From an uncultured Candidatus Saccharibacteria bacterium (GTDB lineage Bacteria; Patescibacteriota; Doudnabacteria; UBA920), in assembly GCA_964532425.1 (NCBI GenBank), contig CAZHIA010000003.1:117365-181364 (forward strand): a stretch of 64,000 nucleotides of DNA, read 5' to 3'. Made by a program: the position numbers and the translations under genes. Under the pieces are notes generated by a model. The model searched no databases and was not told the DNA's origin. It worked only from the letters and a program-made list of their open reading frames with translations. Below are positions 15,468-59,778 of this stretch, piece by piece (the first letter of the stretch is position 1; each line of letters begins with the position of its first letter).

Positions 15468-15527
15468 AATCTTTGCATGGGGACCTTTGTAAATACAAAA
15501 TCACCAACCGACCGGTTGGTGATTTTG
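15468..15527. repeat. Uninterrupted copy of the 60-bp sequence (segments A+B) that is split by the tRNA-Gln gene at 17174-17366.
   Basis: atctttgcatggggacctttgtaaatacaaaa + tcaccaaccgaccggttggtgattttgt. It is 30/32 identical to 17174-17205 and 33/34 identical to 17333-17366. Confidence 0.75.
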
Positions 15528-15913
15528 TGGCTGGCCTTATGGGACGATGTTCGAACAGCTTTAACTTTAAAAATTACAGCGAAGTAACTGCAAGAATACA
15601 GTTAAGCCACGGTAATTAGTTGATTAGAGAGTCTTGCGAACTAACTTTGATTTCTGTTTCGATATTGTTTTCAGGGTTTGTGTTTTCACCAGACAAGAAG
15701 GTTATTCCAAGGTCAAGAAACTTTTGGATAACCTCTTTGCTAGGAAGACGCAATTTTGACCATTCAGAACAGTGTATTATCATTCTGAGCGGCTCTCCTA
15801 TGAGTTCGAAGGCTTTTGTTTCTTGCAGTTACTTCTTAATAATATTATACACCGATTTACATTTGTAATAAAAAATTACATGCTTAAACAAAAGGAATAT
15901 TAGCTTAGAATAT

Positions 15914-17258: not shown

Positions 17259-17333
17259 TGGGGTGTAGCCAAGCGGTAAGGCAAGCGGCTCTGAACCGCT
17301 CATTCCTAGGTTCGAATCCTAGCACCCCAGCCA
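17259..17333 (+). tRNA. tRNA-Gln (anticodon CUG), 75 nt, with an encoded CCA.
   Basis: Cloverleaf with a 7-bp acceptor stem UGGGGUG/CACCCCA and an anticodon loop CUCUGAA. It is near-identical in layout to E. coli tRNA-Gln (GCCAAGCGGUAAGGC D-arm, GGUUCGAAUCC T-arm). Confidence 0.9.
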
Positions 17334-17381
17334 CAAAATCACCAACCGATCGGTTGGTGATTTTGTATTTGCAAAGGTCCC
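17333..17381. repeat. Segment B copy (34-bp perfect palindrome acaaaatcaccaaccgatcggttggtgattttgt) followed by an inverted copy of the segment A core (atttgcaaaggtccc).
   Basis: Matches 15494-15527. It may act as the tRNA terminator hairpin. Confidence 0.75.
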
Positions 17382-32339: not shown

Positions 32340-32415
32340 GTATCATAATCTTTTTATTTTTCTATTTTCTATTTTTTTATCTGGTTTCTATCTTTTTATC
32401 TTTCTATCATTATCG
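32340..32415. repeat. A/T-rich 7-bp-periodic tandem repeats (ttttcta ttttcta ttttttt atctggt ttctatc tttttat ctttcta).
   Basis: Seen in the sequence. Related in composition to 58505-58572. Confidence 0.55.
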
Positions 32416-33056: not shown

Positions 33057-33160
33057 TCCTACACAAGCACGCCGCAATGTCCTTGCAGGCATCGCCAAAG
33101 AGCCTTTGAAAGTTTTTCATCTTTATTTTGTATTAATGTAAGCAGCCCCCGTTTTCCACT

Positions 33161-33733
33161 ATGCAAGACCTTAACCAAGACAAAACCGACGAAGAATTGG
33201 TCAGCCTTGTAAAGGAAGGTGACATTGACCGGTTCGGCGAGCTGGTGGAACGGTATGAAAAAAAGATCCAACGGTACGGCAACCGCTTTCTTTCCGGAAG
33301 CAACAGCCTCGAAGACATCGTCCAGGAAATCTTCCTAAAAGCCTACCGTAATATCCAGAGTTTTGATGTTTCGAGGAAATTCTCGTCCTGGCTCTACCGC
33401 ATCGCACACAATGAGTTCATCAATGAGTGGAAAAAGAACAGCAGGAGCCACTTCACTTTTATGGACCCCGAGCTGCTGGCAATACATCCGGCTCCAGAAA
33501 ATCCCCCCGGCGAATACGAGCGGCAAGAAATTGCCCGCATGCTCGAACACTCTCTCAGCCGCGTGGAAGAGAAGTACCGTGAAATTCTGATCCTGTATTT
33601 CCAAGAGGATTTTTCGTACAAGGAGATCGCCGATATTCTCCAGATTCCCGTCGCCACGGTCGGCGTGCGCCTGCAGCGCGGAAAAGTACGTCTCAAAAAA
33701 GCATTTGATTCATTCGATAATTCAAAAATTTAA
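33161..33733 (+). CDS. ECF-subfamily RNA polymerase sigma-70 factor.
   Basis: Region 2 (FGELVERYEKKIQRYGNRFL...EDIVQEIFLKAYRNIQSF...FSSWLYRIAHNEFIN) and region 4 (YKEIADILQIPVATVGVRLQRGKVRLK). Confidence 0.85.
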   Translation: MQDLNQDKTDEELVSLVKEGDIDRFGELVERYEKKIQRYGNRFLSGSNSLEDIVQEIFLKAYRNIQSFDVSRKFSSWLYRIAHNEFINEWKKNSRSHFTFMDPELLAIHPAPENPPGEYERQEIARMLEHSLSRVEEKYREILILYFQEDFSYKEIADILQIPVATVGVRLQRGKVRLKKAFDSFDNSKI

Positions 33734-33769
33734 TATTTAAATTTTTAATTTAAATTTTTAAATACTTTT

Positions 33770-34495
33770 ATGGCTTCAGAACCGGCCACCCAAAATTCGC
33801 TGAAAGACTCTATCTTAAGCAAGATCAAGCACGGGGACGTGAAAATGCACTCCCGCGGGTATTTTGCCGCGCAACTGGCCGCCATTGTTACAGTCGTCAG
33901 TTTAGTGCTCCTGCTGACCATCCTTGCTACCAGTTTTCTGGTGTTCACATTGCGGTCGAGCGGACGACTGTTCCTGCCGGGCTTTGGTTGGTCAGGCATA
34001 GGCATTTTCCTCACCACCTTCCCCTGGCTGATACTGTTTGCCGTCCTGGTATTTGCGGTTGCCACGGAATTGCTGATCAAGCGGTTTTCCTACCGCCGCC
34101 CGTTCGTCTATTCGTTCCTGGGCTTGCTGGCCGGAGCAGCAGTGTTCGGTACGCTCATTGCACTCACCTCTGTCCATCCGTACATCTCACGCCAGGCTCG
34201 TGAGCACCAGTTTCCCGTAGCTGGCGATCTCTATCGCAGGTACGAGCATGAGCCGCGGGCGGATTTCCACCATGGGATCATTAAAAAAATGGAAGCTGGG
34301 CAATTTGTCATTCACACCGACGAAGGAGAATGCATTGTCATCCCGAACCCCAAGCAGCAGACAGCCAACCTGGATGTGGGAGACGAGGTATTCGTCATGG
34401 GTCCGGAAAACGACCGGATCATCCGGGCTTCCGATATCCGCAATGTCAGCGACGATTCCTGGTTCCAAAAAGTCTTCCCGTTTGACCTGAAATAA
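33770..34495 (+). CDS. Membrane protein directly downstream of the ECF sigma factor; putative anti-sigma factor.
   Basis: Called by position plus TM helices; there is no diagnostic motif. Confidence 0.4.
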   Translation: MASEPATQNSLKDSILSKIKHGDVKMHSRGYFAAQLAAIVTVVSLVLLLTILATSFLVFTLRSSGRLFLPGFGWSGIGIFLTTFPWLILFAVLVFAVATELLIKRFSYRRPFVYSFLGLLAGAAVFGTLIALTSVHPYISRQAREHQFPVAGDLYRRYEHEPRADFHHGIIKKMEAGQFVIHTDEGECIVIPNPKQQTANLDVGDEVFVMGPENDRIIRASDIRNVSDDSWFQKVFPFDLK

Positions 34496-34613
34496 AAACC
34501 CAAAAACATTGTATTACTCAGTGAATCCCATATAATGCCGGATTTCCGGCATTTTTAAGCATTTACTTTCATTTAGCATTCTTACTGCCCTCGCGGACTT
34601 TGATACATAAAAC

Positions 34614-34655
34614 ACACATTCCATTTTTGTCCGGTCGGACAAAAATGGAATGTGT
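34614..34655. promoter_or_regulatory. 42-bp near-perfect palindrome (20-bp arms) acacattccatttttgtccg-gt-cggacaaaaatggaatgtgt upstream of the FMN-binding protein gene.
   Basis: Seen in the sequence; no T-run follows, so it is not a canonical terminator. Confidence 0.55.
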
Positions 34656-34680
34656 AACTCTCACCGCGTACATCTCACGT

Positions 34681-35235
34681 ATGAAAAAATATATTCTCTC
34701 CATTTCTATTACCGTGCTATTCATCGCCTATATATTCTGGCAGCGCCAGGCAGATTCGAACAGTCCAAGCCTGCCGCCAGCTGTTATTCCCGGCACGCAG
34801 TCTCCGATCTCGCAGTCGAACCAAGTGGCAAGCAGCAGAAGCAGCACTCCCAGTACCGACACCGGCGCACCAGCCCAGCAGCCAGCGGCCCAGCAAGCGC
34901 CAAGCCAGCAGCCGGCGGGCCAACCCGCCCAAGCACCAACCGCCACTTCCGGGGCATTTAAAGACGGCACGTATACCGGTCCGAGCGTGGATGCCTACTA
35001 CGGGTATGTCCAGGTTCAGGCCATCGTCTCCGGCGGCAAGCTGACCAACGTACAATTCCTCAGTTACCCGAATGACCGGCGGACTTCGCAGCAGATCAAC
35101 GGCCAGGCTATGCCGCTGTTGACCCAAGAAGCCATTTCCGCGCAAAGTGCCAATGTCGATGCAGTCTCCGGCGCCTCAGACACGAGCGCAGCCTTTGTCC
35201 AATCACTCGGCGCGGCGTTGGCACAAGCCAAGTAA
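34681..35235 (+). CDS. Extracytoplasmic FMN-binding domain protein (NqrC/RnfG-like), a likely flavinylation substrate.
   Basis: Signal/TM helix, a Pro/Gln/Ala-rich linker, then DGTYTG...YYGYVQVQAIVSGGKLTNVQFL...DAVSGASDTS (FMN_bind). Confidence 0.7.
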   Translation: MKKYILSISITVLFIAYIFWQRQADSNSPSLPPAVIPGTQSPISQSNQVASSRSSTPSTDTGAPAQQPAAQQAPSQQPAGQPAQAPTATSGAFKDGTYTGPSVDAYYGYVQVQAIVSGGKLTNVQFLSYPNDRRTSQQINGQAMPLLTQEAISAQSANVDAVSGASDTSAAFVQSLGAALAQAK

Positions 35236-35409
35236 ATGACAAAAAATAAGTAAAACCACTGCAAACGGTCAACGGTTTTCGGTAGCGCCGCGCGTATCGG
35301 CAATCGTTATTCGGCAAGCGGCCGCTCCTCACTTCGCATACCGAATACCGAAACGCGCCGCCCCGCCGAATAACGAGTTATGAGGTATTCTATTTTTATC
35401 ATTTCCCCT

Positions 35410-36156
35410 ATGAAGATTCTTCGCCTTACCATGGGCATGCCGGCGACGGTAGAAATTCGCGATACAGATGGAGCACGTGCAGACGCAGCCATCGGCAAAG
35501 TATTTGAATATTTCTCCGAAATAGACCAGCGGTTCAGCACTTACAAACCGGACAGCGAGATTAGCCGTATCAACCGCGGAGAACTCGAATGGGCAGACAT
35601 CAGTCCGGAAACGAAGGATATTCTTGCCCGGTCGCAGCAGACCAAGGAAGAAACGGCTGGTTACTTTAATATCCGGCGTCCGGACGGCTCTTTGGATCCT
35701 TCCGGCTTGGTAAAAGGCTGGGCTATTTGGCAAGCAGCCAAGCTGCTTGAGAATCTCGGGTTCCAACAGTTCATTGTCGACATCGGCGGAGACATTCAGG
35801 CCAAATCCCTTACCGCCGGTAGCTGGAAAATTGGCGTCCGCAATCCGTTCAATCGCGAACAAAACGTGAAGATTCTCACCCTCGGTAACGAAGGAATCGC
35901 TACGTCCGGCACTGCTATCCGCGGGCAACACATTTATAATCCTCACGAGCCAAAACAGCCCATTACCGACATTGCCAGCTTGACCGTAGTCGGCCCGAAC
36001 GTCTACGAGGCCGACCGATTTGCCACCGCCGCTTTTGCCATGGGCGCGGACGGAATCCGGTTTATCGAATCCGTTCCGGGCCTGGAAGCGTATATGATCG
36101 ACAAGGACGGCATAGCGACGATGACAACGGGGTTCGGGAAATACGTCCAAGAATAA
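35410..36156 (+). CDS. apbE: FAD:protein FMN transferase (ApbE family).
   Basis: ApbE signature blocks MPATVEI, SRINRGE, DPSGLVKGWA and IGGDI. The upstream in-frame ATG at 35380 is an alternative start. Confidence 0.85.
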   Translation: MKILRLTMGMPATVEIRDTDGARADAAIGKVFEYFSEIDQRFSTYKPDSEISRINRGELEWADISPETKDILARSQQTKEETAGYFNIRRPDGSLDPSGLVKGWAIWQAAKLLENLGFQQFIVDIGGDIQAKSLTAGSWKIGVRNPFNREQNVKILTLGNEGIATSGTAIRGQHIYNPHEPKQPITDIASLTVVGPNVYEADRFATAAFAMGADGIRFIESVPGLEAYMIDKDGIATMTTGFGKYVQE

Positions 36157-36268
36157 CAAATATCAAATCTCAAATAACCAATCAATAACAAATCTTTAAA
36201 TTTCAAATTCAGGGAATTGTCATTAAATATTCATTTGAAATTTGATATTTGATATTTGAAATTCATTT
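36157..36268. repeat. Inverted heptamer-array element: tatcaaa-type 7-mers (left) and tttgata/tttgaaa 7-mers (right) in the same 7-bp phase.
   Basis: caaatat caaatct caaataa ccaatca ... tttgaaa tttgata tttgata tttgaaa; the right units are the reverse complement of the left units. Confidence 0.65.
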
Positions 36269-36300
36269 CTAACCAAACTCCTGCGGGACAACATTGATAC

Positions 36301-37827
36301 ATGCTATTTTACGTTGATAATCTCTTAAACCGAATTACCATGTACCGCCTTGTGCTGTACTATCTCATATTCCTGCTGGCCGCTGCCATGGTCCTGGGTT
36401 TTTTTGGCATACTCCCCTACAACCCGATTTCCATTCTCTCTTCGACGCTCGTCCTCGTAGCAGCCGGCTGGATCAGCAACCGGATCATCGCCGCTATCTT
36501 GAACGTACCAACCAATATAGAATCCTCCTACATAACCGCTCTGATTCTCGCACTTATTATCACACCCCCGCAGACCCACCTTCCCGCTGTCTCGCTTCCA
36601 TTCCTGCTCTGGGCTTCGGTCTGGGCCAATGCTTCCAAATATATCATCAACTTCAAAAACAAGCACATCTTTAACCCGGCCGCGTTTGCGGTAGCACTGA
36701 CTGCCCTGACCTTGAACCAAAGCGCAAGCTGGTGGGTTGGCACCGCTGTCATGCTGCCGTTTACACTGATCGGCGGCATCCTCATGATCCGCAAAGTCAG
36801 GCGCTGGGATGCGGTCATAGGATTTATAGCTGCAGCCGTCTTGACTATGCTCGTTCTAACTATTGGTCACGGTAGTATTGTCGTCACTATGCAACGCGCC
36901 ATTCTCGCTTCACCACTGGTCTTCTTTGCCGCAGTTATGCTGACCGAGCCGCTGACCATGCCGCCAACACGCGACGGGCGCATTGCGTATGGTATTCTGG
37001 TCGGTTGGCTGTTTGCGCCGCAGACGCATATCGCCAGCCTGTCCTTTACACCGGAACTGGCTTTACTGGCCGGTAATATTTTTTCCTACGCCATTAGCCC
37101 GAAGGAGCGCTATACCCTCAAGCTGAAAGAAATACAACAGTCTGCGGCCGGCGTGCTCGACTTCGTCTTCTCAACTCCCCGCCAGCTGCAATTCGCGCCG
37201 GGCCAATATATGGAATGGACGCTTGGCCATAACCGGCCGGACAACCGCGGCAATAGGCGATACTTAACCATTGCCTCTTCCCCCACCGAGCAGGACGTAC
37301 GTATTGGCGTAAAATTCTACGAGAATCCCAGCAGCTTTAAACAGAGGCTGGCAAAGCTTAAACCCGGCGATGAGATCATTGCCTCCCAGCTAGCAGGCGA
37401 CTTTGTCCTTCCGGAAGACCAAAAGGAAAAGCTGGTCTTCATCGCAGGAGGCATTGGGGTCACCCCGTTCCGAAGCATGATCAAAGATTTGCTAGACAGA
37501 AAGGAGCAGCGGGACATTGTCGTCTTCTATTCCAACAGGACAGCTGACGAGATTGCGTATACCGATGTGTTCGATGAGGCCAGCCGGCAGCTTGGCATCA
37601 AGACCGTATATACCCTGACTGACCGGAACAGCATTCCTGCAGGCTGGCACGGCGATATTGGTTACTTTACTTCTGAAAAAATAATCCGCCATGTGCCTGA
37701 CTATACGGAACGCACCTTCTACATTTCCGGCTCGCACATTATGGTGGAAGCATTCAAAGAACAACTGCTCGCTATGGGAGTTGGCAGGACGAAAATAGTC
37801 ACTGACTTCTTCCCCGGACTGGCATAA
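36301..37827 (+). CDS. Fusion of an RnfD/NqrB-like polytopic membrane domain with a C-terminal ferredoxin-NADP-reductase-like FAD/NAD(P)-binding domain.
   Basis: HIFNPAAF and MLTEPLTMPPTR (RnfD/NqrB-like); RRYLTIASSP (RxYS FAD motif) and FIAGGIGVTPF (NAD motif). Confidence 0.6.
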   Translation: MLFYVDNLLNRITMYRLVLYYLIFLLAAAMVLGFFGILPYNPISILSSTLVLVAAGWISNRIIAAILNVPTNIESSYITALILALIITPPQTHLPAVSLPFLLWASVWANASKYIINFKNKHIFNPAAFAVALTALTLNQSASWWVGTAVMLPFTLIGGILMIRKVRRWDAVIGFIAAAVLTMLVLTIGHGSIVVTMQRAILASPLVFFAAVMLTEPLTMPPTRDGRIAYGILVGWLFAPQTHIASLSFTPELALLAGNIFSYAISPKERYTLKLKEIQQSAAGVLDFVFSTPRQLQFAPGQYMEWTLGHNRPDNRGNRRYLTIASSPTEQDVRIGVKFYENPSSFKQRLAKLKPGDEIIASQLAGDFVLPEDQKEKLVFIAGGIGVTPFRSMIKDLLDRKEQRDIVVFYSNRTADEIAYTDVFDEASRQLGIKTVYTLTDRNSIPAGWHGDIGYFTSEKIIRHVPDYTERTFYISGSHIMVEAFKEQLLAMGVGRTKIVTDFFPGLA

Positions 37828-37830
37828 CAA

Positions 37831-37958
37831 ACACAACATTTAACCATTAACAATTAACATTTGACTGTAGTCGCCTCATCGGCGACCGCCGATAGGGTGG
37901 GAGGAGACCCTTGGTCTTCCCTATCCGGTCAAATGTCACATGTCAAAGGTCAAAGGTA
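37831..37958. repeat. Inverted heptamer-array element: ttaacaa/ttaacat 7-mers, a 60-bp spacer with a hairpin, then gtcaaat gtcacat gtcaaag gtcaaag.
   Basis: Same architecture as 57771-57837 and 63495-63558. Confidence 0.6.
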
Positions 37959-37967
37959 TATTTATCT

Positions 37968-38210
37968 ATGTATCATTATGGTTTCCCCTGGTTTGGGTTC
38001 GGAGGATTATTAGGCATGATACTCTTCTGGGTGTTCGTCGTTATTCTTATCGCCTGGGTTGTCCGCAGGCCATATCATTACTCCGGTCCGTCTGCTGGGC
38101 CCAACCCGCAATCCAGCCGTAGCGCGCTGGACGTTTTGAACGAGCGCTACGCCAAAGGCGAGATCAACAAACAAGAATATGACCAAAAGAAAAAAGACAT
38201 TATGGCATAA
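37968..38210 (+). CDS. SHOCT-domain small membrane protein.
   Basis: TM helix plus the C-terminal ALDVLNERYAKGEINKQEYDQKKKDIMA (SHOCT). Confidence 0.6.
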   Translation: MYHYGFPWFGFGGLLGMILFWVFVVILIAWVVRRPYHYSGPSAGPNPQSSRSALDVLNERYAKGEINKQEYDQKKKDIMA

Positions 38211-38269
38211 GCCAAGATCAAAAACTTTGATATTTACTTTCGTGATATAATGGAAGTAATCAAACTTCC

Positions 38270-38452
38270 ATGATTCGACTTTTTAAATTGACTTTGTATC
38301 TGCTCTTAGCAGCCGCAGCCCTGTTTTTGTACTGGTTCCTGCCTAAGTACTCGTTTATCAGCAAAAATCCGGGATACTGCGTCAAACTCAGCCAACACTT
38401 GTTCTATTGCGGCAACGACAGCAGGCTGGACAAGATGTTCAACGCTAAATAG
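38270..38452 (+). CDS. Small hypothetical membrane protein (60 aa).
   Basis: ORF only. Confidence 0.3.
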   Translation: MIRLFKLTLYLLLAAAALFLYWFLPKYSFISKNPGYCVKLSQHLFYCGNDSRLDKMFNAK

Positions 38453-39166: not shown

Positions 39167-39531
39167 TTGGCTGATTTATGTGCCGTGTGATCTGAACCCT
39201 ACAACGACTCCCCAAAAACCCAAAATCAGGCTGAGTACCAGGTATTTGTCGGCCAGATCGAAACTCTGGCGGAAAGCGAACCCAACGACACCGAACAAGA
39301 ACAAGACCGAACCGGTAACGAGCGCGTATGAGCGGTGGCTATTTAAAAACATGTAATTTTTACTGCTTTTTCGACCTAGGCCGAAAAAGGTTGAAAAAAT
39401 TGTTAAAACCCGTATAATTATAGCAGCTTAAACCTCCTAAGGAAAGCACCGGAAAAGCTTTCCGAGGGACAAAGAGATATCACTAAATCCTTAATTGGAT
39501 ACGGCTATTGTGCCGTTATCCACACCAACCT

Positions 39532-41541
39532 ATGACCGAAAACTCTTTGCTCGTTGCTGCCCTCGTGGCCAGCCTGATAGCCCTGCTCTATGGGGTCTTT
39601 TTAATTTTTAAAATCCTCCGCCAGCCGCAAGGTTCGGGCAAGATGCTCGAAATTGCCAAAGCCGTCCAAGACGGAGCCAAGGCCTACCTGAACCGCCAGT
39701 ACCGCACCGTCGGCATTGTCGCGGTCGTCATTGTCCTCCTGATGTGGATCGCGCACTTTTCCGGCCATACGATCGTCGGGTTCATTATTGGCGCCGTGCT
39801 CTCCGCGGTTGCCGGATTCATTGGCATGAATATTTCCGTACGCGCCAATGTCCGCACCGCTGAAGCGGCTAAAAAAGGATTATCCGCCGCATTGTCTTTG
39901 GCTTTTGAAGGCGGCACTGTCACCGGCTTGTTCGTTGCCGGGCTCGGACTGCTCTCTGTGACCGTCTTTTACATGACCACCCGTGACCTGCCCGCACTGG
40001 CAGGATTAGCCTTCGGTGCTTCTTTGATCTCCGTTTTTGCCAGACTCGGCGGTGGCATCTTCACTAAAGGTGCTGACGTCGGTACCGACATGGTTGGCAA
40101 GGTCGAAGCTTCCATTCCGGAAGACGATCCGCGCAATCCGGGCGTCATTGCCGATAACGTCGGCGATAACGTCGGTGACTGCGCCGGCATGGCCGCGGAC
40201 CTGTTTGAAACCTATGTTGTGTCCGCTGTCGCCGTTATTTTGCTCGGCAACGTAGTCTTCCCTGGTTTCCTGAATGCCATCTTGTTCCCACTGCTCATCG
40301 GCGCGGCTTCTATTATTACCACCATCATCGGCACCTGGTTTGTCCGCCTGGGCAAGAGCAAGAACATCATGGGCGCCATGTACAAAGGCTTTGCCGTGAC
40401 TGGCGTACTCTCTGCCATAGTCTTCTACCCCCTGACCCAGAAACTCATGGCCGACAACCCGGGCAACATCAGCTGGCAGAATCTCTTCTATTCCTCTTTG
40501 ATCGGTCTTGTCGTCACCGGCCTTATAGTTCTGATCACCGAATTCTACACTTCCAAGTCCTTTAAGCCGGTGCGCGATATTGCCGCAGCTTCCACCACCG
40601 GACATGGTACCAACATCATCAAAGGGCTCGCCGTGGGCATGCAGTCCACCGCCTTACCGGTCATTGTCATCGTCATTGCCATTCTGGCAGCATACAAGCT
40701 AGCCGGATTATATGGCATTGCTTTGTCGGTTATGAGCATGCTTTCCCTGACCGGCATTGTCGTGGCCATTGATGCTTTCGGTCCCATCACTGACAACGCG
40801 GGCGGGATTGCCGAAATGGCTGAACTGGATAAGAGCGTGCGCGATGTGACCGACCCGCTCGATGCGGTCGGCAACACCACCAAAGCCGTCACCAAGGGCT
40901 ATGCCATCGCTTCGGCAGGACTTGCTGCCATGGTACTGTTTGCAGCATACACTCAGGAACTTGCAGCCAATAATATTTCCACTGTCTTCGATCTTTCCAA
41001 TAGCAAAGTCCTGGTTGGATTGCTCATTGGCGGACTGCTCCCCTACTTATTCGCTTCGATTGCCATGTCCGCCGTCGGAAATGCAGCCAAGGCTGTCGTT
41101 GAAGAAGTCCGCCGCCAGTTCCGCGAAATAAAGGGTATTATGGAAGGCACTGCCAAACCGGATTACTCCCGTGCGGTTGACATTGTAACCAAAGCTGCCA
41201 TTAAAGAAATGATCATTCCGGCTCTCATTCCGGTCATCATTCCCATCCTGGTCGGCTGGCTGCTTGGCGCTGCTGCCTTGGGCGGTTTGCTCGTCGGTAC
41301 TATCGTCACCGGACTGTTCGTGGGTATTTCCATGACCACCGGCGGCGCAGCCTGGGACAATGCCAAGAAGTATATTGAAGAAGGCCAGTTTGGCGGCAAA
41401 GGTTCGGACGCTCACAAGGCAGCCGTGACCGGCGACACCGTCGGCGACCCGTACAAGGATACTGCCGGCCCCGCGATTAATCCTATGATTAAAATTATCA
41501 ATATAGTCGCTCTCTTGCTAGTCAAATTCTTAAAGGGCTAA
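39532..41541 (+). CDS. hppA: Membrane-bound proton/sodium-translocating pyrophosphatase (V-type H+-PPase).
   Basis: [40 protein letters not shown] and [11 protein letters not shown] signature blocks; about 16 TM helices. Confidence 0.92.
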
Positions 41542-45632: not shown

Positions 45633-46784
45633 TTAAGCTATGATTCCCCCGCCCACGCATATCTTGCCATCGTATAAGACCAAGCTCTGGCCGGACGCGA
45701 TAGACTTTTGGGGAGTTTTGAAATGAACCAGGTACGTACCGCCATCTTTTTGTTCGATCGTGAGCGGGACTAAATCACCCTGATGACGGAAGCGGCCTGC
45801 CAGCTGCCAGCTTTTAGCTTCTAGCTTATAGGCTATAGCTTCAGGCTGCGCAATCCAGTTCAAAGAATGTAAGGTAATATCCAGGACTTGCAGCGCTTTG
45901 TCGTCCGGGTCATTGGTCACGTACAGGGTGTTGTCATTCAGGTCCTTGCGCACGACAAAATACGGCCCGCTGGCACCAACCTTAATACCCTGACGTTGGC
46001 CAATGGTATAGTTATGAAGGCCTTCATGCTGACCGATGGCATTACCATGCTGGTCGATAATCGGCCCCGGCTTGGGTTTGAGCTTTTGTTCCAAAAAATC
46101 CTTCAGGCGAATCTTACCGACAAAGCACAGCCCCATGCTTTCCTGGCGACTTGCGTTCGGCAATCCGATCTTTGCCGCCAGCTTTTTCACTTCGGCTTTC
46201 TTCATCTCGCCAATCGGAAACAGCAGATGCGGTAACTGTTCGGGCTTGATGTTGTAAATGAAATAGGTCTGATCTTTGAATTCGTCAACGCTACGCTCAA
46301 GTTGAAAATGCAAAGTTAAAAATTCAAAATTACGTGGTGTGTTATCACTTTTAACTTTTAACTTTTCACTTTTCACTATCCTTGCATAATGCCCGGTCGC
46401 CAAATAGTCAAACCCATGCTCCATGGCCCAGTTATAGAGCAGCTTGAACTTGATCTCCTTATTGCACATGACATCCGGATTCGGCGTACGCCCGGCTTCG
46501 TACTCGCGAAAAAAATACTCCATCACCGTGTCCTGGTACTGCCTTTCGAAATCGAGCGTGTAGAGCGGAATCTTCAAAAACGCGGCTACGCGCAGCGCTT
46601 CCTGCCGGTCAGCCAGCCAAGGGCACTCACTCTTTAAAAGACCTTCGGTCAAAGACCAGTTTTTCATAAAAGCTGCTTCAACTTCGTATCCAGCCCGAAT
46701 GAGCAGGTATGCCGAAACAGCAGAATCAATTCCGCCGGAAAGGGCGACGAGCACCTTATTTTTTTGGCCGCTCTTGCGTTTCAT
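45633..46784 (-). CDS. mnmA: tRNA-specific 2-thiouridylase MnmA.
   Basis: PP-loop VLVALSGGIDSAV, ATGHYAR, and C-terminal GKICVGGGII. Contains an in-frame insert of about 16 aa that coincides with the heptamer-array element at 46301-46377. Confidence 0.9.
   Translation of the reverse strand: MKRKSGQKNKVLVALSGGIDSAVSAYLLIRAGYEVEAAFMKNWSLTEGLLKSECPWLADRQEALRVAAFLKIPLYTLDFERQYQDTVMEYFFREYEAGRTPNPDVMCNKEIKFKLLYNWAMEHGFDYLATGHYARIVKSEKLKVKSDNTPRNFEFLTLHFQLERSVDEFKDQTYFIYNIKPEQLPHLLFPIGEMKKAEVKKLAAKIGLPNASRQESMGLCFVGKIRLKDFLEQKLKPKPGPIIDQHGNAIGQHEGLHNYTIGQRQGIKVGASGPYFVVRKDLNDNTLYVTNDPDDKALQVLDITLHSLNWIAQPEAIAYKLEAKSWQLAGRFRHQGDLVPLTIEQKDGGTYLVHFKTPQKSIASGQSLVLYDGKICVGGGIIA
46301..46377. repeat. 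Inverted heptamer-array element lying in frame inside mnmA (gttgaaa atgcaaa gttaaaa attcaaa ... actttta actttta acttttc acttttc).
   Basis: 4x perfect/near-perfect 7-mers. Encodes the extra segment ...KSEKLKVKSDNTPRNFEFLTLHFQ... which is absent from E. coli MnmA at this position. Confidence 0.65.
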
Positions 46785-50479: not shown

Positions 50480-50514
50480 CCCCGTAGGGGACGGTCGCGA
50501 CCGTCCCCTACAAG
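50480..50514. repeat. REP-like unit cccgtaggggacggtcgcgaccgtcccctacaagg.
   Basis: GTAGGG-GACGGTCGCGACCGTC-CCCTAC. Confidence 0.75.
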
Positions 50515-54000: not shown

Positions 54001-54140
54001 AATTCGAATATCGAAATACTAAATCCGAAACAAACTCTAAATTATAAACTCTAAATAACAAACTTTCTGCTTCGAATTTGAAATATTAGAATTTGGAATT
54101 TGTTTCGAATTTCGGGATTCGAATTTAGAATTTATTTTCG
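54001..54140. repeat. A/T-rich 7-bp-periodic repeat region (aattcga atatcga ... aacaaac tctaaat ... cgaattt cgggatt cgaattt agaattt).
   Basis: 7-bp phase is maintained over about 140 bp; the left units (aattcga) are inverted relative to the right units (cgaattt). Confidence 0.5.
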
Positions 54141-54744: not shown

Positions 54745-54770
54745 AGTACGATTGGCTTGGTACGGGCCGG

Positions 54771-54799
54771 TCGCGACCGGCCCCTACGACACTAAATTT
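54771..54799. repeat. REP-like unit gtacgggccggtcgcgaccggcccctacg.
   Basis: Same family as 50480-50514. Confidence 0.7.
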
Positions 54800-54816: not shown

Positions 54817-56328
54817 TTACCCCAAACTCCGGCGGAGCTTGCCGGTTTCAGTGATCAGTTCAGTGGCAGCCTTTTGGTCTTCCATAAGCAAGAGCAGGTT
54901 CGATGACAAATTCTTGTGCAAATAGTCGTCTTTGGACTGCGGACCAAGGGTGATCCCCAAATGCTTTTCTGTCAGCGCGATATCTTCCTGGATGCTGTGC
55001 CAAGCCGGATGGCTCACTGCCAGACGTTCAAGGTTCTCGCGGTTCACGTACCGGCCGGCACGAACCAGATCGGAGTGCAAATTATGGTAATAGGTCTGAA
55101 CCACGTCCATCTCGGCATTGGACAGCTGCTTAAACGCGCGTCCGAGTCCGATAAATTCCGGCGGCAGGCCGATGGAATACAGGGCCGCGGTAAAATTAAT
55201 GGCGCGCGGCAGCTGCAGCTTGCCGGCACTGCGCTGATACGCTAAAAAGCCGATATGCTGGCGGCGTTCGCGCCTTCTGGGTACGGCGGCAAACAGCGGT
55301 TGAACATCTTTCAAAATTTTGCCGAGCGCCTGCTGGTAACTCTTCTCACACTTGGCGATTGCTGACTTGACCGCTCCCCGATCGCGCGCCGACACCGGCT
55401 GCACTTGGGTCTTAGGCAACTCTTCTTGTAGGCGCAGAATGGCTTTTTTGACTTTTACCAAAGGATAGTCGTACCGGAAGGCGGACTGGATAGTGACCGT
55501 ACGTACGCCGCCGTATTCGGCCAAAAAGCCGTCCACATTCTCGGGACTCAAACCGCCGCGGAAGATCAGGCTCCCGACGCCGATAATCGGATGCGCCGAG
55601 ATGCCACTCTGTTCCGAAAATTGCGCAATGTCCGAAAGCGCGACTTTATTGGCAAGCATGGTGGCAAGAAGCCCCGAAACCAGTGCCGGATCACTGCGGG
55701 CCAAAAAGGGACGGATGTAGTCCGGCTTGCCGCGGAATTGCTTCTTGTGCATATCCAAATATTCGCGTAGCAGCTTTCCGATGCCCAACTGGCTTTCCAC
55801 GCCTTCCACCAGCGGAATAATCTCCATGTAATCGGTATTGGCCACCGTACGATGGTCGAACGTCTTGCTCTTAAAGCGCGCCAGCTGGCGGAACGAGCGC
55901 TGAATGTACATGAGCTGCTCAGCTTTTTCCGTCATGGGTAAAATAGCTTCAAACAGAGGCGGGCTGTGGAATTTCAGATCTACGGCAAAATCCTCGCTCG
56001 TTAAAATGACCATAAGCGCGCGAATGAGACTATACCCCTGCTCCTTCCAGATGTTTGGCAGCCGGAACGTCAAAAAATGCTCTTTGCCGATATGGAAGTC
56101 TTTAAAGAATTCGTAGTGATTGGAGAACAGTTTGTCGATGACCGCTTCGTCTGCGTACTTTCCTTCCCAGTCCCACATAAACTCTTCCACACCAAGGTCT
56201 TTGTAACAGGCCATGCACTCGCGCAGTTCTTCATAAATATTTACAAAACCGTTCCCGTCCGTTTCCCAGAACGGCGCACAGGCATTGTCCGGGTGCTGAG
56301 TAGCCATTGTAGAAGGAATTTTTCGCAT
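54817..56328 (-). CDS. Archaeal-type phosphoenolpyruvate carboxylase (PepcA-like).
   Basis: N-terminal IPSTMATQHPDNA signature; about 500 aa, much shorter than bacterial Ppc. Confidence 0.85.
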   Translation of the reverse strand: MRKIPSTMATQHPDNACAPFWETDGNGFVNIYEELRECMACYKDLGVEEFMWDWEGKYADEAVIDKLFSNHYEFFKDFHIGKEHFLTFRLPNIWKEQGYSLIRALMVILTSEDFAVDLKFHSPPLFEAILPMTEKAEQLMYIQRSFRQLARFKSKTFDHRTVANTDYMEIIPLVEGVESQLGIGKLLREYLDMHKKQFRGKPDYIRPFLARSDPALVSGLLATMLANKVALSDIAQFSEQSGISAHPIIGVGSLIFRGGLSPENVDGFLAEYGGVRTVTIQSAFRYDYPLVKVKKAILRLQEELPKTQVQPVSARDRGAVKSAIAKCEKSYQQALGKILKDVQPLFAAVPRRRERRQHIGFLAYQRSAGKLQLPRAINFTAALYSIGLPPEFIGLGRAFKQLSNAEMDVVQTYYHNLHSDLVRAGRYVNRENLERLAVSHPAWHSIQEDIALTEKHLGITLGPQSKDDYLHKNLSSNLLLLMEDQKAATELITETGKLRRSLG

Positions 56329-57744: not shown

Positions 57745-57770
57745 AATTTGAATCTTAATGCACAAGAACA

Positions 57771-57837
57771 TTTGACATTTGACCTGTGACATGTGACCGA
57801 ATGCAGTCGGTCAATTGTTAAATGTCAATTGTCAATT
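57771..57837. repeat. Inverted heptamer-array element: tttgaca tttgacc tgtgaca tgtgacc, an 11-bp spacer, then gtcaatt gttaaat gtcaatt gtcaatt.
   Basis: Seen in the sequence; the left block is 29/33 identical to 63495-63527. Confidence 0.7.
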
Positions 57838-57839
57838 GT

Positions 57840-58572: not shown

Positions 58573-59778
58573 TTATTGCGTCCCCCTGCCTACCGCTTCG
58601 CTGATATTCTTATATCCGTCTTGCTCGAGTAATCTGACCAGTCCGCGATTGATATCACTGATCGCTTCGGGACCTTCGAAGATCATGCCGGTGATCAACT
58701 GAATCAGACTCGCGCCGAGCTTGATCTTTCTATAGGCATCCTCAGCCGTAAACACGCCGCCGCACCCGATGATCACGAATTCTCCGCGCGTCTTTTGATA
58801 CAGATAGGCAATTTGCCGGTCAGACAACGCCTGTACTACCTTGCCCGACATGCTGCCACTTTGAGGCAAATCGGATTCCTTAATGTTCGGGTTAGACCGG
58901 TCTTTGGCCAGATTGGTACTGATAAACCCCGTGATTTTATGCTTGCGCGCAACTTCGATCATGCCATCCAAAACTTGTTCAGGCATCTCGGCCGGCATTT
59001 TGATGAAGACTGGTTTTTGGTTCGGTACCTGGCGTAAAGCTGTCATAAGGCGGTCGAACTTCTCCGGGGTAGTGAACGGCTCGCCGCCAAAGGCATTCGG
59101 ACAGGAAATATTGACCGTAAAATAATCGCCGGTGTTCGCATCCACGAAGGTCTTGTACGCCTTCACGTAATCCGCAATACCAGCTTGTTCCTCGACCGTG
59201 TCGGCACTGTTAGTCTTGGCAATAGATATCCCGATCGGTATTCGACTGACGGTGTAAGGACGGGCCTGCGCCTTACCGGCGGGCAGGTCGACCCGTTCAG
59301 AAGCGGAACGGTCTCGACCGTTCCCTACAGACTGTAGTCTCTTCACGATTGCTTTACATCCGTCATTTTTAAGTCCGTAATACACGACCAGGCTCCCCGA
59401 CCGCTTCAACCGCCACAGTCGCGGCTTGGGATTGCCCGCACACGGGTTGCCAGTAACCGAGCCAATCTCTTCAAATCCAAATCCCACTTCGGGCAGGATC
59501 TGCGTCAAATGCGCGTCCTTGTCAAATCCGGCCGCAAGGCCTATGGGATTTTCAAAACGGATGCCGGCAACGGTTTGGGCCAACATAGGACTATCATAAC
59601 CGAACATGACTCTCGTCAATCCGCGGGTTGCTGCCGTTTTGCCGAGCATGGAGCCGACGAATGTCATACGGTCATGCACCGCTTCCGGATCGGCAAGAAA
59701 AAACAACGGCTTCAGCACGCCTTTATACGCAACCCGGATAACTGCATTGCGCGCAATAATAAGAGAATCTTTAAGCAT
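58573..59778 (-). CDS. pyrD: Dihydroorotate dehydrogenase (quinone), class 2.
   Basis: N-terminal membrane-association helix; GNPKPRLWRL, IGSVT and GGV blocks; contains an in-frame REP-like insert. Confidence 0.85.
   Translation of the reverse strand: MLKDSLIIARNAVIRVAYKGVLKPLFFLADPEAVHDRMTFVGSMLGKTAATRGLTRVMFGYDSPMLAQTVAGIRFENPIGLAAGFDKDAHLTQILPEVGFGFEEIGSVTGNPCAGNPKPRLWRLKRSGSLVVYYGLKNDGCKAIVKRLQSVGNGRDRSASERVDLPAGKAQARPYTVSRIPIGISIAKTNSADTVEEQAGIADYVKAYKTFVDANTGDYFTVNISCPNAFGGEPFTTPEKFDRLMTALRQVPNQKPVFIKMPAEMPEQVLDGMIEVARKHKITGFISTNLAKDRSNPNIKESDLPQSGSMSGKVVQALSDRQIAYLYQKTRGEFVIIGCGGVFTAEDAYRKIKLGASLIQLITGMIFEGPEAISDINRGLVRLLEQDGYKNISEAVGRGTQ
59290..59330. repeat. REP-like unit (ggaacggtctcgaccgttccctacag) lying in frame inside pyrD.
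   Basis: Translated on the minus strand as ...QSVGNGRDRSASERVDLP... Confidence 0.65.

What the first reader, a model, noticed from the sequence alone, without database searches (positions are those of the whole stretch)
34614..37827. Flavin-trafficking membrane redox module (FMN-binding protein, ApbE flavin transferase, RnfD-like/FNR fusion) preceded by a 42-bp palindrome
Seen in the sequence: three consecutive plus-strand genes. (1) A secreted or anchored FMN_bind-domain protein with a long Pro/Gln/Ala linker. (2) ApbE. (3) A protein whose N-terminal half has RnfD/NqrB hallmarks (FNPAAF, MLTEPLTMPP) and whose C-terminal half is an FNR-type FAD/NAD(P) domain (RxYS, GGIGVTPF). A near-perfect palindrome with 20-bp arms (34614-34655) sits just upstream, and heptamer arrays separate genes 2/3 and lie after gene 3. 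Established knowledge: ApbE flavinylates FMN_bind and NqrB/RnfD-type proteins on a Thr. Inference: a minimal NADH:acceptor flavin-based electron-transfer unit (RnfD domain fused to its own reductase), possibly for extracellular or periplasmic electron transfer. The palindrome is a candidate redox-regulator operator.
Basis: partly seen in the sequence, partly recalled or inferred. Interest (0 to 1): 0.5.

Follow-up and report, generated by a model that had tools for sequence, protein, structure and literature searches.

The report
Known NQR/RNF-like flavin electron-transfer module
This is a typical copy of a membrane redox module already described from genome surveys (a flavin-carrying anchor protein, its flavin-attaching enzyme, and an RnfD-like membrane domain fused to an NAD(P)H reductase), and it appears to be switched on by the neighbouring stress sigma factor rather than through the palindrome.

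Summary
The three plus-strand genes, the 42-bp palindrome and the heptamer arrays are all present at the stated coordinates. The gene set meets the published definition of the "NQR/RNF-like" flavinylation-associated system (Méheust 2021; Huang 2024). That system has been described only by bioinformatics. I found the same cassette in 66 of 80 related loci from Chloroflexota and Patescibacteria.

Gene 1 carries the flavinylation motif (DAVSGAS). Gene 3 has a genuine RnfD/NqrB fold, but the loop that holds the flavinylated Thr is deleted, so it is not an ApbE substrate.

The palindrome is unique to this genome and absent from relatives. It is one of 23 long hairpins in the window. It lies in about 130 nt of extra leader, downstream of an ECF-type promoter motif (TGAAAT-N16-TGTATTA). 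That motif occurs only twice in the window: before the adjacent ECF sigma gene and before gene 1. It recurs at the same places in the three syntenic relatives.

One point is unexplained. The cassette's ApbE has no signal peptide in any locus, yet its substrate is predicted to face outside the cell.

Verdict: a new member of a known kind, of modest interest.

The parts
33107..33135 (+). ECF-type promoter motif TGAAAG-N16-TGTATTA, 26 nt upstream of the sigma gene (probable autoregulatory promoter)
   Evidence: One of only two matches to TGAAAK-N17-GTADTA in the 64-kb window, where 0.06 are expected. L082 has the same motif before its sigma gene.
33161..33733 (+). ECF sigma factor, SigW-like, 190 aa
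   Evidence: Pfam Sigma70_r2 and Sigma70_r4_2. NCBIfam SigW at 128 bits, below its cut-off. Sits in the same position in L064, L068 and L082.
33770..34495 (+). 241-aa membrane protein with three TM helices; a candidate anti-sigma partner, unproven
   Evidence: Three hydrophobic segments. No Pfam or NCBIfam family. Homologues follow the sigma gene in L064 and L068, and a 250-aa gene without any Pfam family (homology not tested) occupies that position in L082.
34488..34516 (+). ECF-type promoter motif TGAAAT-N16-TGTATTA overlapping the stop codon of the upstream gene; probable promoter of the flavin module
   Evidence: This is the second of the two window matches. Among 83 loci, matches occur only in L064, L068 and L082, each directly upstream of the FMN_bind gene.
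34534..34556 (+). Short GC-rich hairpin (GCCGG/CCGGC) followed by ATTTTT; resembles a terminator or attenuator within the leader
   Evidence: Read directly from the sequence. Part of inverted repeat I2. The loop is too short for the scan to report it.
34614..34655 (.). Perfect palindrome (20-nt arms, 2-nt centre) in the 5' leader of gene 1; a lineage-specific hairpin
   Evidence: Absent from relatives. One of 23 long hairpins in the window, against 0-2 in shuffles.
34681..35235 (+). Membrane-anchored FMN_bind protein (NqrC/RnfG-like), 184 aa; predicted covalent FMN on Ser166 of DAVSGAS
   Evidence: PF04205. Motif at residues 163-166. In relatives the [ST]GA[ST] motif occurs 82 times over 75 gene-1 ORFs and is absent from only 4 of them; the N-terminal flank is rich in Lys/Arg, which predicts N-in/C-out.
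35273..35375 (.). Imperfect inverted repeat with 7-nt periodicity between genes 1 and 2
   Evidence: Arms of 41 nt, 73% complementary, and a 12-nt perfect pair. The fold is only weakly better than shuffles, z = -2.1.
35410..36156 (+). Compact ApbE flavin transferase without a leader peptide (248 aa from MKILRL; the longest ORF starts at 35380)
   Evidence: PF02424 at 139 bits. No hydrophobic segment. Aligns from residue 8 to residue 23 of the crystallised 340-aa ApbE chain 4xgw_A, and keeps QH(I) and DxxxT. Leaderless in all related loci.
36152..36263 (.). Pair of heptamer arrays (AATATCA-like and ATTTGAA-like) forming a hairpin of about 105 nt between genes 2 and 3
   Evidence: RNA fold -26.5 kcal/mol, z = -3.6.
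36301..37827 (+). Fusion protein: RnfD/NqrB-like 10-helix membrane domain (residues 1-268) plus an FNR-type FAD/NAD(P)H domain (residues 269-508)
   Evidence: Pfam. AF2 model with pLDDT 83.7. The N-terminal domain model matches RnfD and NqrB chains at TMq 0.58-0.70. Profile match to RnfD 8ahx_D at E = 2.3e-5. The C-terminal domain matches NqrF, flavohaemoglobin and related structures.
37836..37957 (.). Pair of heptamer arrays (AACAATT-like and GGTCAAA-like) flanking a GC-rich hairpin, downstream of gene 3
   Evidence: RNA fold -47.4 kcal/mol, z = -5.1.
37968..38210 (+). Small membrane protein with a SHOCT domain (80 aa from the ATG at 37968); conserved downstream only in the closest relatives
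   Evidence: PF09851. A SHOCT gene follows the fusion gene in L082 and L083.

Best explanation
The locus encodes an 'NQR/RNF-like' flavinylation-associated transmembrane electron-transfer system in a Patescibacteria (CPR) genome.

**Shown here**
- Gene 3 is a 10-helix RnfD/NqrB-fold membrane domain fused to an FNR-type FAD/NAD(P)H reductase.
- Gene 1 is a membrane-anchored FMN_bind protein that carries the ApbE recognition motif.
- Gene 2 is an ApbE.
- The three genes form a conserved cassette.

**Inferred**
- NAD(P)H is oxidised at the cytoplasmic FNR domain.
- Electrons cross the membrane through non-covalent flavin site(s) in the RnfD-like domain. This domain has lost its own flavinylation loop.
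- The electrons reach the FMN that ApbE attaches covalently to Ser166 of gene 1, on the outer face. From there they reduce an unidentified extracytosolic acceptor.

**Regulation (inferred from motif statistics)**
- The module is transcribed from an ECF-type promoter (34488-34516). The same motif precedes the adjacent SigW-like sigma gene, so the module looks like the main target of that sigma factor and hence of an envelope signal.
- The 42-bp palindrome is a lineage-specific hairpin inserted in the 5' leader.
- The heptamer-array hairpins between the cistrons are insertions of the same kind.
- The most likely role of these hairpins is as RNA-level terminator, attenuator or stability elements, not as a protein operator.
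For: **Identity of the system**
- Domain hits.
- The cluster meets the published definition: a PF03116+PF00175 fusion in a cluster with ApbE and FMN_bind.
- The fusion family is very large and full-length: 7990 hits, with the best 120 at 56-64% identity.
- Among 80 related loci, the fusion gene has FMN_bind upstream in 76 and ApbE directly upstream in 66. Most loci are from Chloroflexota and Patescibacteria.

**Gene 3**
- RnfD/NqrB fold.
- The flavinylation loop is deleted.
- The distribution of Lys/Arg over the loops of the AF2 helices is consistent with N-in/C-in, which places the FNR domain in the cytoplasm.

**Gene 1**
- Conserved motif and N-in/C-out anchor.

**Regulation**
- The ECF motif occurs exactly twice in 64 kb, where 0.06 are expected: before the sigma gene and before gene 1.
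- In about 820 kb of related loci it occurs only in the three syntenic loci, at the homologous positions.
- A related NAAA-N14-15-CGTA[TC] motif lies upstream of FMN_bind in 8 of 10 ECF-adjacent loci, against 1 of 62 others.

**Hairpins**
- The palindrome is not conserved and has no other copy in the window.
- The window has 23 long hairpins against 0-2 in shuffles. Most are intergenic and many lie within about 30 nt of a gene's 3' end.
- Relatives have 25-60 nt between the motif and the start codon. This window has 165 nt.
Against: - No component has been studied experimentally, here or in the literature I could search. The direction of electron flow, the flavin content of the membrane domain and the acceptor are all inferred.
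- The cassette's ApbE has no signal peptide in this window or in any related locus. That is hard to reconcile with an extracytosolic substrate.
- The ECF motif was derived after the fact from the same sequences in which it was then counted.
- A terminator-like hairpin (34534-34556) sits only about 12 nt after the predicted transcription start. This would limit output from that promoter unless it is read through.
- The palindrome has no U-tract on the plus strand, so it is not a canonical intrinsic terminator.
Confidence: 0.7

Rival explanations
1. The palindrome is the operator of a (redox-sensing) transcription factor that controls the module.
For: It is a perfect dyad immediately upstream of gene 1. 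A weak sigma-like match (TGGAAT-N15-CGTACAT, 34646-34673) overlaps its right arm.
Against: - Only 7 of 72 related loci have any hairpin of 10 bp or more upstream of FMN_bind, and none resemble each other or this one. The syntenic loci L064 and L068 are among those without one; L082 was fetched later and has only 25 nt there.
- No DNA-binding regulator other than the ECF sigma factor is adjacent.
- Perfect 20-nt arms are far longer than usual operators. They resemble the 22 other long hairpins in the window, many of which lie close to a gene's 3' end.
Confidence: 0.07
2. The flavinylated FMN_bind domain faces the cytoplasm, or is modified there before export. On this reading the module is a cytoplasmic or membrane-facing NAD(P)H oxidoreductase, for example reducing a membrane quinone as the NqrB half of Na+-NQR does, and not an exporter of electrons.
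For: - ApbE is leaderless here and in about 60 related cassettes.
- Cytoplasmic ApbE acting on a cytoplasmic FMN_bind domain is known from Klebsiella fumarate reductase (PMC12052999).
- The window also encodes a quinone-type (class 2) dihydroorotate dehydrogenase.
Against: - The anchors of the FMN_bind proteins have 2-7 Lys/Arg before the helix and 0-2 after it in most loci, which predicts N-in/C-out.
- The homologous NqrC and RnfG subunits are periplasmic (established knowledge).
- The published AlphaFold-multimer model docks the subunit on the outer face (PMC11334425).
Confidence: 0.12
3. The two-subunit complex is a minimal ion-translocating redox pump. Electron transfer through the RnfD/NqrB-like domain would be coupled to Na+ or H+ movement, so the module would conserve energy as well as dispose of electrons.
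For: The membrane domain keeps the full RnfD/NqrB fold. It has invariant polar and charged residues within the helical, presumably membrane-embedded regions, including E74, K113, H122 and E216.
Against: The RnfA/E and NqrD/E subunits, which carry the intramembrane Fe-S centre of the pumps, were not among the eight neighbouring proteins scanned. No test of ion coupling is possible with these tools.
Confidence: 0.1

Closest known systems
NQR/RNF-like flavinylation-associated system (Méheust et al. 2021, eLife, PMC8238504; Huang et al. 2024, mSystems, PMC11334425; modelled for Ktedonobacter racemifer)
   Same: - A fusion of an NqrB/RnfD-like membrane domain (PF03116) with an NqrF-like NAD-binding domain (PF00175).
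- An adjacent NqrC/RnfG-like FMN_bind subunit and ApbE.
- The membrane subunit lacks the flavinylated Thr.
- It occurs in the candidate phyla radiation (CPR), one of the two groups (with Actinobacteria) where the 2021 survey found most of these clusters.
   Different: - About 144-nt intercistronic spacers filled with heptamer-repeat hairpins.
- A 42-bp palindrome in the leader.
- Synteny with an ECF sigma gene, a membrane protein and a SHOCT gene.
- The papers do not discuss the leaderless ApbE or any regulation.
Na+-NQR of Vibrio cholerae (subunits NqrB, NqrC, NqrF; e.g. PDB 7xk3, 8a1t)
   Same: - The membrane domain has the NqrB fold (TMq 0.58-0.65).
- The C-terminal domain matches the FAD/NADH domain of NqrF.
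- The partner protein resembles NqrC and carries covalent FMN.
   Different: - No NqrA, NqrD or NqrE subunits.
- No 2Fe-2S ferredoxin domain on the reductase.
- No covalent FMN on the NqrB-like domain.
- The reductase is fused directly to the membrane domain, so electron flow is presumably one-way (cytoplasm to outside) rather than semicircular to quinone.
Rnf complex subunits RnfD and RnfG (PDB 8ahx, 7zc6, 9eri)
   Same: These are the best structural and profile matches to the membrane domain. The motifs FNPA, Q-x-[ST]-[ST]-W and (L/A)T(E/D)P are shared.
   Different: The RnfD loop bearing DGxTxAT is deleted. No RnfA, B, C or E subunits. The electron donor is NAD(P)H through a fused FNR domain, not ferredoxin.
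Flavin-based extracellular electron transfer of Listeria monocytogenes (Ndh2, EetA/B, PplA, FmnB)
   Same: A membrane-tethered, ApbE-flavinylated FMN_bind protein receives electrons derived from NADH. Gene 1 gives a weak match to the PplA model (E = 7e-4).
   Different: Listeria routes electrons through a quinone (DMK) and a type-2 NADH dehydrogenase, and its ApbE homologue FmnB acts outside the cytosol (PMC9973259; that it is a lipoprotein is from memory). Here there is no quinone step and the ApbE is leaderless.
Cytoplasmic ApbE of Klebsiella pneumoniae, which serves the soluble fumarate reductase (reviewed in PMC12052999)
   Same: An ApbE without a signal peptide.
   Different: Its substrate FMN_bind domain is cytoplasmic. 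Here the substrate is predicted to be extracytosolic.

Membership tests
NQR/RNF-like flavinylation-associated system (operational definition of Méheust 2021) | One protein with an N-terminal NqrB/RnfD domain (PF03116) and a C-terminal NqrF-type NAD-binding domain (PF00175) | tested here: met
   PF03116 scores 33.7 bits (cut-off 27.7) and PF00175 scores 56 bits on the 508-aa product. The definition is quoted.
NQR/RNF-like flavinylation-associated system (operational definition of Méheust 2021) | Encoded within five genes of an ApbE or FMN_bind gene | tested here: met
   FMN_bind and ApbE lie directly upstream on the same strand. The same order is found in 66 of 80 related loci.
NQR/RNF-like flavinylation-associated system (operational definition of Méheust 2021) | [quoted passage not shown] | tested here: inconclusive
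   No SignalP is available. Gene 1 has an N-terminal hydrophobic helix preceded by MKK and no lipobox Cys. ApbE has no hydrophobic N-terminus.
NQR/RNF-like flavinylation-associated system (Huang 2024 description) | The NqrB/RnfD-like subunit lacks the flavinylated Thr, while the NqrC/RnfG-like subunit keeps its flavinylation site | tested here: met
   No [ST]GA[ST] in the membrane domain of the window protein or of 75 of 75 homologues. The RnfD flavinylation loop aligns to a gap. Gene 1 has DAVSGAS.
RnfD/NqrB family proper (subunit of the Rnf or Na+-NQR complex) | RnfD/NqrB 10-helix fold | tested here: met
   The top 15 Foldseek PDB matches to the N-terminal domain model are all RnfD or NqrB chains, probability 1.00, TMq 0.58-0.70.
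RnfD/NqrB family proper (subunit of the Rnf or Na+-NQR complex) | Covalent FMN on a Thr in the extracytosolic loop (D-G-x-[ST]-x-A-T) | tested here: not met
   The loop is absent. Fusion NQSASWW aligns to RnfD VQMTSW, and the next 45-70 RnfD residues, including DGVTTAT, have no counterpart.
RnfD/NqrB family proper (subunit of the Rnf or Na+-NQR complex) | Encoded together with the other Rnf or Nqr subunits (RnfA/B/C/E/G or NqrA/C/D/E/F) | tested here: not met
   The eight proteins scanned, spanning 32.4-39.1 kb, include none of these apart from the FMN_bind protein. The rest of the window was not scanned protein by protein.
ApbE FAD:protein FMN transferase | ApbE domain with the catalytic His and the Mg-binding D-x-x-x-T | tested here: met
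   PF02424 at 139 bits. Alignment to PDB ApbE chain 4xgw_A (which I take to be E. coli ApbE) pairs QHIYNP with SHVIDP and DRFAT with DAWDT. The functional role of these residues is recalled from the literature and was not tested.
ApbE FAD:protein FMN transferase | N-terminal lipoprotein or secretion signal placing the enzyme outside the cytosol (canonical ApbE) | tested here: not met
   No hydrophobic segment. Related cassettes start at MKQTRLLMGMP, often with a stop codon 1-6 codons upstream. The alignment starts at residue 23 of the crystallised 340-aa ApbE chain; such constructs usually lack the signal peptide.
FNR-like (ferredoxin-NADP reductase superfamily) module | NAD(P)H-binding Rossmann domain with G-x-G-x-x-P, plus a FAD-binding barrel with R-x-[YF]-[ST] | tested here: met
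   GGIGVTP at residues 383-389 and RRYLTIASS at 319-327. Sequence and fold matches to NqrF, flavohaemoglobin, Fre and b5 reductase. No Pfam FAD_binding_6 hit at E <= 0.01.
ECF sigma regulon (autoregulated sigma plus target operon) | A sigma factor with regions 2 and 4 only, and the same promoter motif before its own gene and before the target operon | tested here: met
   Sigma70_r2 and r4_2. TGAAAK-N17-GTADTA occurs only at 33107 and 34488 in the window, where 0.06 are expected. Among related loci it occurs only at the homologous sites of L064, L068 and L082. The motif was defined after the fact.
ECF sigma regulon (autoregulated sigma plus target operon) | A cognate anti-sigma factor with a recognisable anti-sigma domain | tested here: inconclusive
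   The co-transcribed 241-aa three-TM protein has no family hit. Its position is conserved.
Transcription-factor operator (for the palindrome) | A dyad conserved at the orthologous position in related loci | tested here: not met
   7 of 72 loci have any hairpin of 10 bp or more, and none are alike. The closest relative, L082, has only 25 nt of spacer there.
Intrinsic terminator (for the palindrome) | A stable stem followed by a U-tract on the transcribed strand | tested here: not met
   The stem is very stable, but the T-run is on the minus-strand side only. The smaller hairpin at 34534-34556 does have a plus-strand T-run.

The most novel reading that the evidence does not exclude
In this widespread Chloroflexota/Patescibacteria cassette the flavin transferase is cytosolic. 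Two readings follow:
- Covalent flavinylation happens in the cytoplasm before the FMN_bind domain is exported. That would be a new maturation route, one that removes the need to export FAD.
- The FMN_bind domain faces inward, in which case the published outward electron-export model for NQR/RNF-like systems is wrong.

Separately, in CPR bacteria the module is the dedicated output of an ECF sigma factor. That would make it an envelope-stress-induced redox device in organisms that have no respiratory chain.
Probability: 0.2. Interest if true: 0.6.

Novelty: new member of a known kind. Interest (0 to 1): 0.3.

Why it matters
NQR/RNF-like systems are among the very few membrane redox devices in CPR bacteria, which lack respiratory chains. 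They could be the route by which these cells dispose of NAD(P)H electrons or deliver reducing power to the envelope. No member has been characterised experimentally.

This locus adds three testable details:
- a defined ECF-type promoter that links the module to an adjacent sigma factor;
- a consistently leaderless ApbE, which conflicts with the assumed outward-facing substrate;
- a short, compact gene set (184, 248 and 508 aa) suitable for heterologous reconstitution.

The palindrome and the heptamer hairpins are a property of this genome's intergenic DNA. They are not part of the redox system.

Tried and rejected
- **Rfam scans.** The whole window at gathering thresholds returned only a tRNA. 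Region 34400-38300 at E <= 1 returned only chance-level hits. There is no FMN riboswitch or other known RNA.
- **Copies of the palindrome.** A search for further copies of the palindrome arm in the window, allowing up to 3 mismatches, found none.
- **Hairpins upstream of FMN_bind in relatives.** 72 related loci showed no conserved hairpin.
- **Foldseek with the full-length model.** The results were swamped by FNR-domain hits. I re-modelled the N-terminal 268 residues alone to test the RnfD fold.
- **S143 as a vestigial flavinylation site.** I considered the invariant A142-[S/T]143 (QSASWW) as a remnant of the site. I rejected it because it aligns with the RnfD motif Q-M-T-[ST]-W, which precedes the flavinylation loop.
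- **RnfD sequences for that alignment.** I used an E. coli RsxD sequence recalled from memory only as a probe. The RnfD sequences actually aligned are the PDB sequences printed by HMMER.
- **Weak sigma-like match inside the palindrome arm.** TGGAAT-N15-CGTACAT was set aside in favour of the exact motif at 34488.
- **ORF clustering of flanks.** A naive clustering picked some antisense ORFs in high-GC loci. I used it only to spot neighbours that recur.
- **SHOCT.** A regex search found a SHOCT gene downstream of the fusion gene only in the two closest relatives.
- **Literature.** Searches for experimental work on RnfD-like/FNR fusions found only the two bioinformatic papers. The supplementary sheet listing NQR/RNF-like clusters was truncated in the held copy.

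Full report
**1. The observation**

- Gene 1 (34681-35235, 184 aa) matches Pfam FMN_bind (28.2 bits, cut-off 22).
  - It has one N-terminal hydrophobic helix, followed by a Ser/Pro/Gln/Ala-rich linker of about 75 residues.
  - Homologues start at MKK followed by the helix. The ATG at 34681 is therefore the start, not the upstream TTG at 34600, and the palindrome lies outside the coding sequence.
- Gene 2 (35380 or 35410 to 36156) is an ApbE (139 bits).
- Gene 3 (36301-37827, 508 aa) combines PF03116 NQR2_RnfD_RnfE (33.7 bits, cut-off 27.7) with PF00175 NAD_binding_1 (56 bits).
- The palindrome has two 20-nt arms that are 100% complementary, with 2 nt between them.
  - It has no other copy in the window and no equivalent in shuffles.
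  - As RNA the region folds at -40.9 kcal/mol, z = -6.8.
- The heptamer arrays are real.
  - They occur as inverted pairs that fold into long imperfect hairpins between genes 2 and 3 and after gene 3.
  - A weaker repeat of the same kind lies between genes 1 and 2.

**2. What the genes are**

*The C-terminal half of gene 3.* This is an FNR-type module.
- It carries GGIGVTP and a variant FAD motif, RRYLTIASS.
- It matches NqrF, flavohaemoglobin, Fre and cytochrome b5 reductase in both sequence and fold.

*The N-terminal half of gene 3.* This has the RnfD/NqrB fold.
- A 16-sequence profile of this half hits Azotobacter RnfD (8ahx_D) at E = 2.3e-5.
- An AlphaFold2 model of residues 1-268 (pLDDT 80.5) has RnfD and NqrB chains as its 15 best PDB matches (probability 1.00, TMq 0.58-0.70).
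- The model shows about ten membrane helices. Lys/Arg cluster in the loops that the N-in/C-in arrangement places inside. This puts the FNR domain in the cytoplasm, as NAD(P)H use requires.

*Flavinylation sites.*
- Gene 1 carries the ApbE recognition motif (VDAVSGASDT, residues 160-169).
  - Across 75 gene-1 ORFs from related loci, the motif [ST]GA[ST] occurs 82 times and only four ORFs lack it.
  - Their anchors have 2-7 Lys/Arg before the helix and 0-2 after it. By the positive-inside rule the FMN_bind domain is therefore outside.
- Gene 3 has no such motif, and neither do 75 of 75 homologues from related loci.
- I aligned four family members with genuine RnfD sequences from PDB entries 8ahx and 7zc6, read from the HMMER output. 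Two things follow:
  - The fusion motif NQSASWW corresponds to RnfD (V/L)QMT(S/T)W.
  - The next 45-70 RnfD residues, including the flavinylated DG(V/M)T(T/G)AT, fall in a gap of the fusion proteins.
- The flavinylation loop has therefore been deleted.

**3. Comparison with what is known**

This architecture is already described.
- Méheust et al. 2021 (PMC8238504) defined an "NQR/RNF-like" system as a PF03116+PF00175 fusion inside a flavinylation gene cluster.
  - They counted 127 clusters, mainly in Actinobacteria and the candidate phyla radiation.
- Huang et al. 2024 (PMC11334425) modelled the Ktedonobacter racemifer complex and made two points:
  - The NqrB/RnfD-like subunit lacks the flavinylated Thr.
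  - The covalent flavin of the NqrC-like subunit may occupy the corresponding pocket.
- I found no experimental study.

The window locus meets every testable part of the definition. The family is much larger than the 2021 count.
- One protein search was saturated by full-length relatives. 7990 of the 8000 candidates scored passed E <= 0.001, and the best 120 listed are 56-64% identical.
- A scan of GTDB species genomes returned 80 loci, mostly Chloroflexota and Patescibacteria.
- Of those 80 loci, 76 have FMN_bind upstream of the fusion gene and 66 have ApbE directly upstream of it.
- The window organism is probably a Patescibacteria MAG. The named neighbours of its histidyl-tRNA synthetase and of the fusion protein are Patescibacteria or Doudnabacteria.

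**4. Regulation and the palindrome**

In the closest relatives the gene order is the same as in the window: ECF sigma, membrane protein, FMN_bind, ApbE, fusion. This holds in L064 and L068 and in L082. A SHOCT gene follows the fusion gene in L082 and L083.

A SigW-like motif, TGAAA(T/G)-N16-xGTA(T/A/G)TA, is highly specific.
- It occurs exactly twice in the 64-kb window, where 0.06 are expected.
  - One copy lies 26 nt upstream of the sigma gene (33107).
  - The other overlaps the stop codon of the membrane protein, upstream of gene 1 (34488).
- In about 820 kb of related loci it occurs only in L064, L068 and L082. Each has a copy directly before FMN_bind, and L082 has a second copy before its sigma gene.
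- Parcubacteria loci with a divergently oriented ECF sigma gene carry a related motif, NAAA-N14-15-CGTA[TC], upstream of FMN_bind in 8 of 10 cases. Only 1 of 62 other loci has it.
- I defined these motifs from the same sequences in which I counted them, so the statistics are somewhat generous. The positional specificity is nevertheless strong.
- This pattern is the usual signature of an autoregulated ECF sigma factor and its target operon.
- In Chloroflexota, a response regulator and histidine kinase pair lies within the fetched flanks of the cassette in 10-13 loci, directly adjacent in several.

The palindrome is not part of this conserved layout.
- Only 7 of 72 loci have any hairpin of 10 bp or more in the 220 nt upstream of FMN_bind, and none are alike.
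- The motif ends 4, 36 and 36 nt before the start codon in L082, L064 and L068. In the window it ends 164 nt before.
- The extra sequence holds a short terminator-like hairpin with a T-run (34534-34556) and then the palindrome.
- The window as a whole has 23 hairpins with stems of 13 bp or more, against 0-2 in shuffles. Most are intergenic and many lie within about 30 nt of a gene's 3' end.
- The window also has 18 period-7 tandem arrays, against 0-2 in shuffles. Relatives have about 1.2 per 64 kb.
- In most relatives the three genes abut or overlap. Here, spacers of about 144 nt containing hairpins separate them.

I conclude that the palindrome and the heptamer hairpins belong to a genome-wide class of intergenic hairpin elements. 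Within this operon they most likely act on the RNA, through attenuation, termination or stability. I found no support for a redox-regulator operator. The palindrome is also not a canonical terminator, because it has no plus-strand U-tract.

**5. Unexplained: the leaderless ApbE**

- The ApbE of the cassette has no signal peptide or hydrophobic N-terminus.
- In about 60 related loci the gene starts at MKQTRLLMGMP, often with a stop codon a few codons upstream.
- The window protein aligns from its residue 8 to residue 23 of the crystallised 340-aa ApbE chain 4xgw_A, a construct that normally lacks the signal peptide. It retains the His and D-x-x-x-T positions.
- Canonical ApbE is a periplasmic lipoprotein. 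Cytoplasmic forms are known only with cytoplasmic substrates (PMC12052999).
- The two papers on NQR/RNF-like systems do not address this point.

Three explanations remain open: the substrate is modified before export, ApbE reaches the outside by an unknown route, or the assumed topology is wrong. This is the one aspect of the locus that could change the published picture.

**6. Verdict**

It is wrong about flavinylation of gene 3 and unsupported for the palindrome. The locus is a new member of a known but experimentally uncharacterised kind. The added value is the ECF promoter link and the ApbE localisation paradox. Interest: 0.3.

Noticed in passing
window, whole: e.g. 32348-32408, 33726-33763, 45797-45841, 46305-46377, 54032-54133, 57768-57839: Period-7 tandem arrays are a genome-wide intergenic feature: 18 TRF rows against 0-2 in shuffles. 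Their unit sequences differ. Several neighbouring arrays lie in pairs like the inverted, hairpin-forming pairs in the studied region, but whether these other pairs are complementary was not tested. Relatives have about ten times fewer. They resemble cyanobacterial STRR heptamer repeats (from memory). Their origin and function are unknown.
   Followed up: partly
window 15494-15529 and 17332-17367: Two near-identical 36-nt palindromes (ACAAAATCACCAACCG..CGGTTGGTGATTTTGT) lie in opposite orientation about 1.8 kb apart. They bracket a segment that includes the only tRNA gene in the window (17259-17330). They could be a repeated terminator or the ends of a small mobile element.
   Followed up: no
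window 50483-50512 and 54760-54787: Two related GC-rich palindromes (GGGGACGGTCGCGACCGTCCCC and GGGCCGGTCGCGACCGGCCC) without T-runs. Possibly a second family of repeated hairpins.
   Followed up: no
L001 (Logan contig SRR11567520_100174) = window 34623-37956: An independent short-read assembly of the same sequence begins inside the left arm of the palindrome and ends inside the heptamer array after gene 3. Assemblers evidently break at these hairpins.
   Followed up: no
window 58573-59859 (-), 54817-56328 (-), 39508-41541 (+): This apparent Patescibacteria genome encodes a quinone-type (class 2) dihydroorotate dehydrogenase (NF003652, 319 bits against a cut-off of 267). It also encodes an archaeal-type PEP carboxylase and what looks like a membrane H+-pyrophosphatase (677 aa; inferred from the sequence, not scanned against a family library). 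A quinone-dependent enzyme is unexpected in a lineage usually thought to lack quinones. Its electron acceptor might relate to the flavin module.
   Followed up: no
window 36301 versus 36340: The public gene call for the fusion protein (P0001, 495 aa) starts at Met14. The 13 residues before it (consensus MLxxIDNFLNRIT) are conserved across the family, so the start at 36301 (508 aa) is more likely.
   Followed up: yes
L043 4203-4260 (Oscillochloris sp. ZM17-4): An inverted pair of heptamer arrays (CAGGAGG x3.7 and GCCTCCT x4.0) sits between the FMN_bind and ApbE genes of this Chloroflexota cassette. Intercistronic heptamer hairpins of this kind are therefore not confined to the window genome.
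   Followed up: no
L079 3659-5004: The FMN_bind domain and ApbE are in one reading frame with no stop codon between them. The FMN_bind gene also has an internal frameshift. This is either a real FMN_bind-ApbE fusion or indel errors from a long-read assembly. A real fusion would place ApbE on the same side of the membrane as its substrate.
   Followed up: partly
L004, L036, L046, L065, L070, L071 and others, flanking the fusion gene: In 10-13 Chloroflexota loci an OmpR-type response regulator and a histidine kinase lie within the fetched flanks of the cassette, directly downstream of the fusion gene in L004, L070 and L071. This parallels the ECF sigma association in Patescibacteria. In both lineages an envelope-signal transducer sits next to the module.
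   Followed up: partly
L002, L008, L011, L044, L049, L052, L060, L078: Parcubacteria loci with a divergent ECF sigma gene have FMN_bind followed directly by the fusion gene, with no ApbE in the cluster. The flavin transferase must be encoded elsewhere in those genomes.
   Followed up: no
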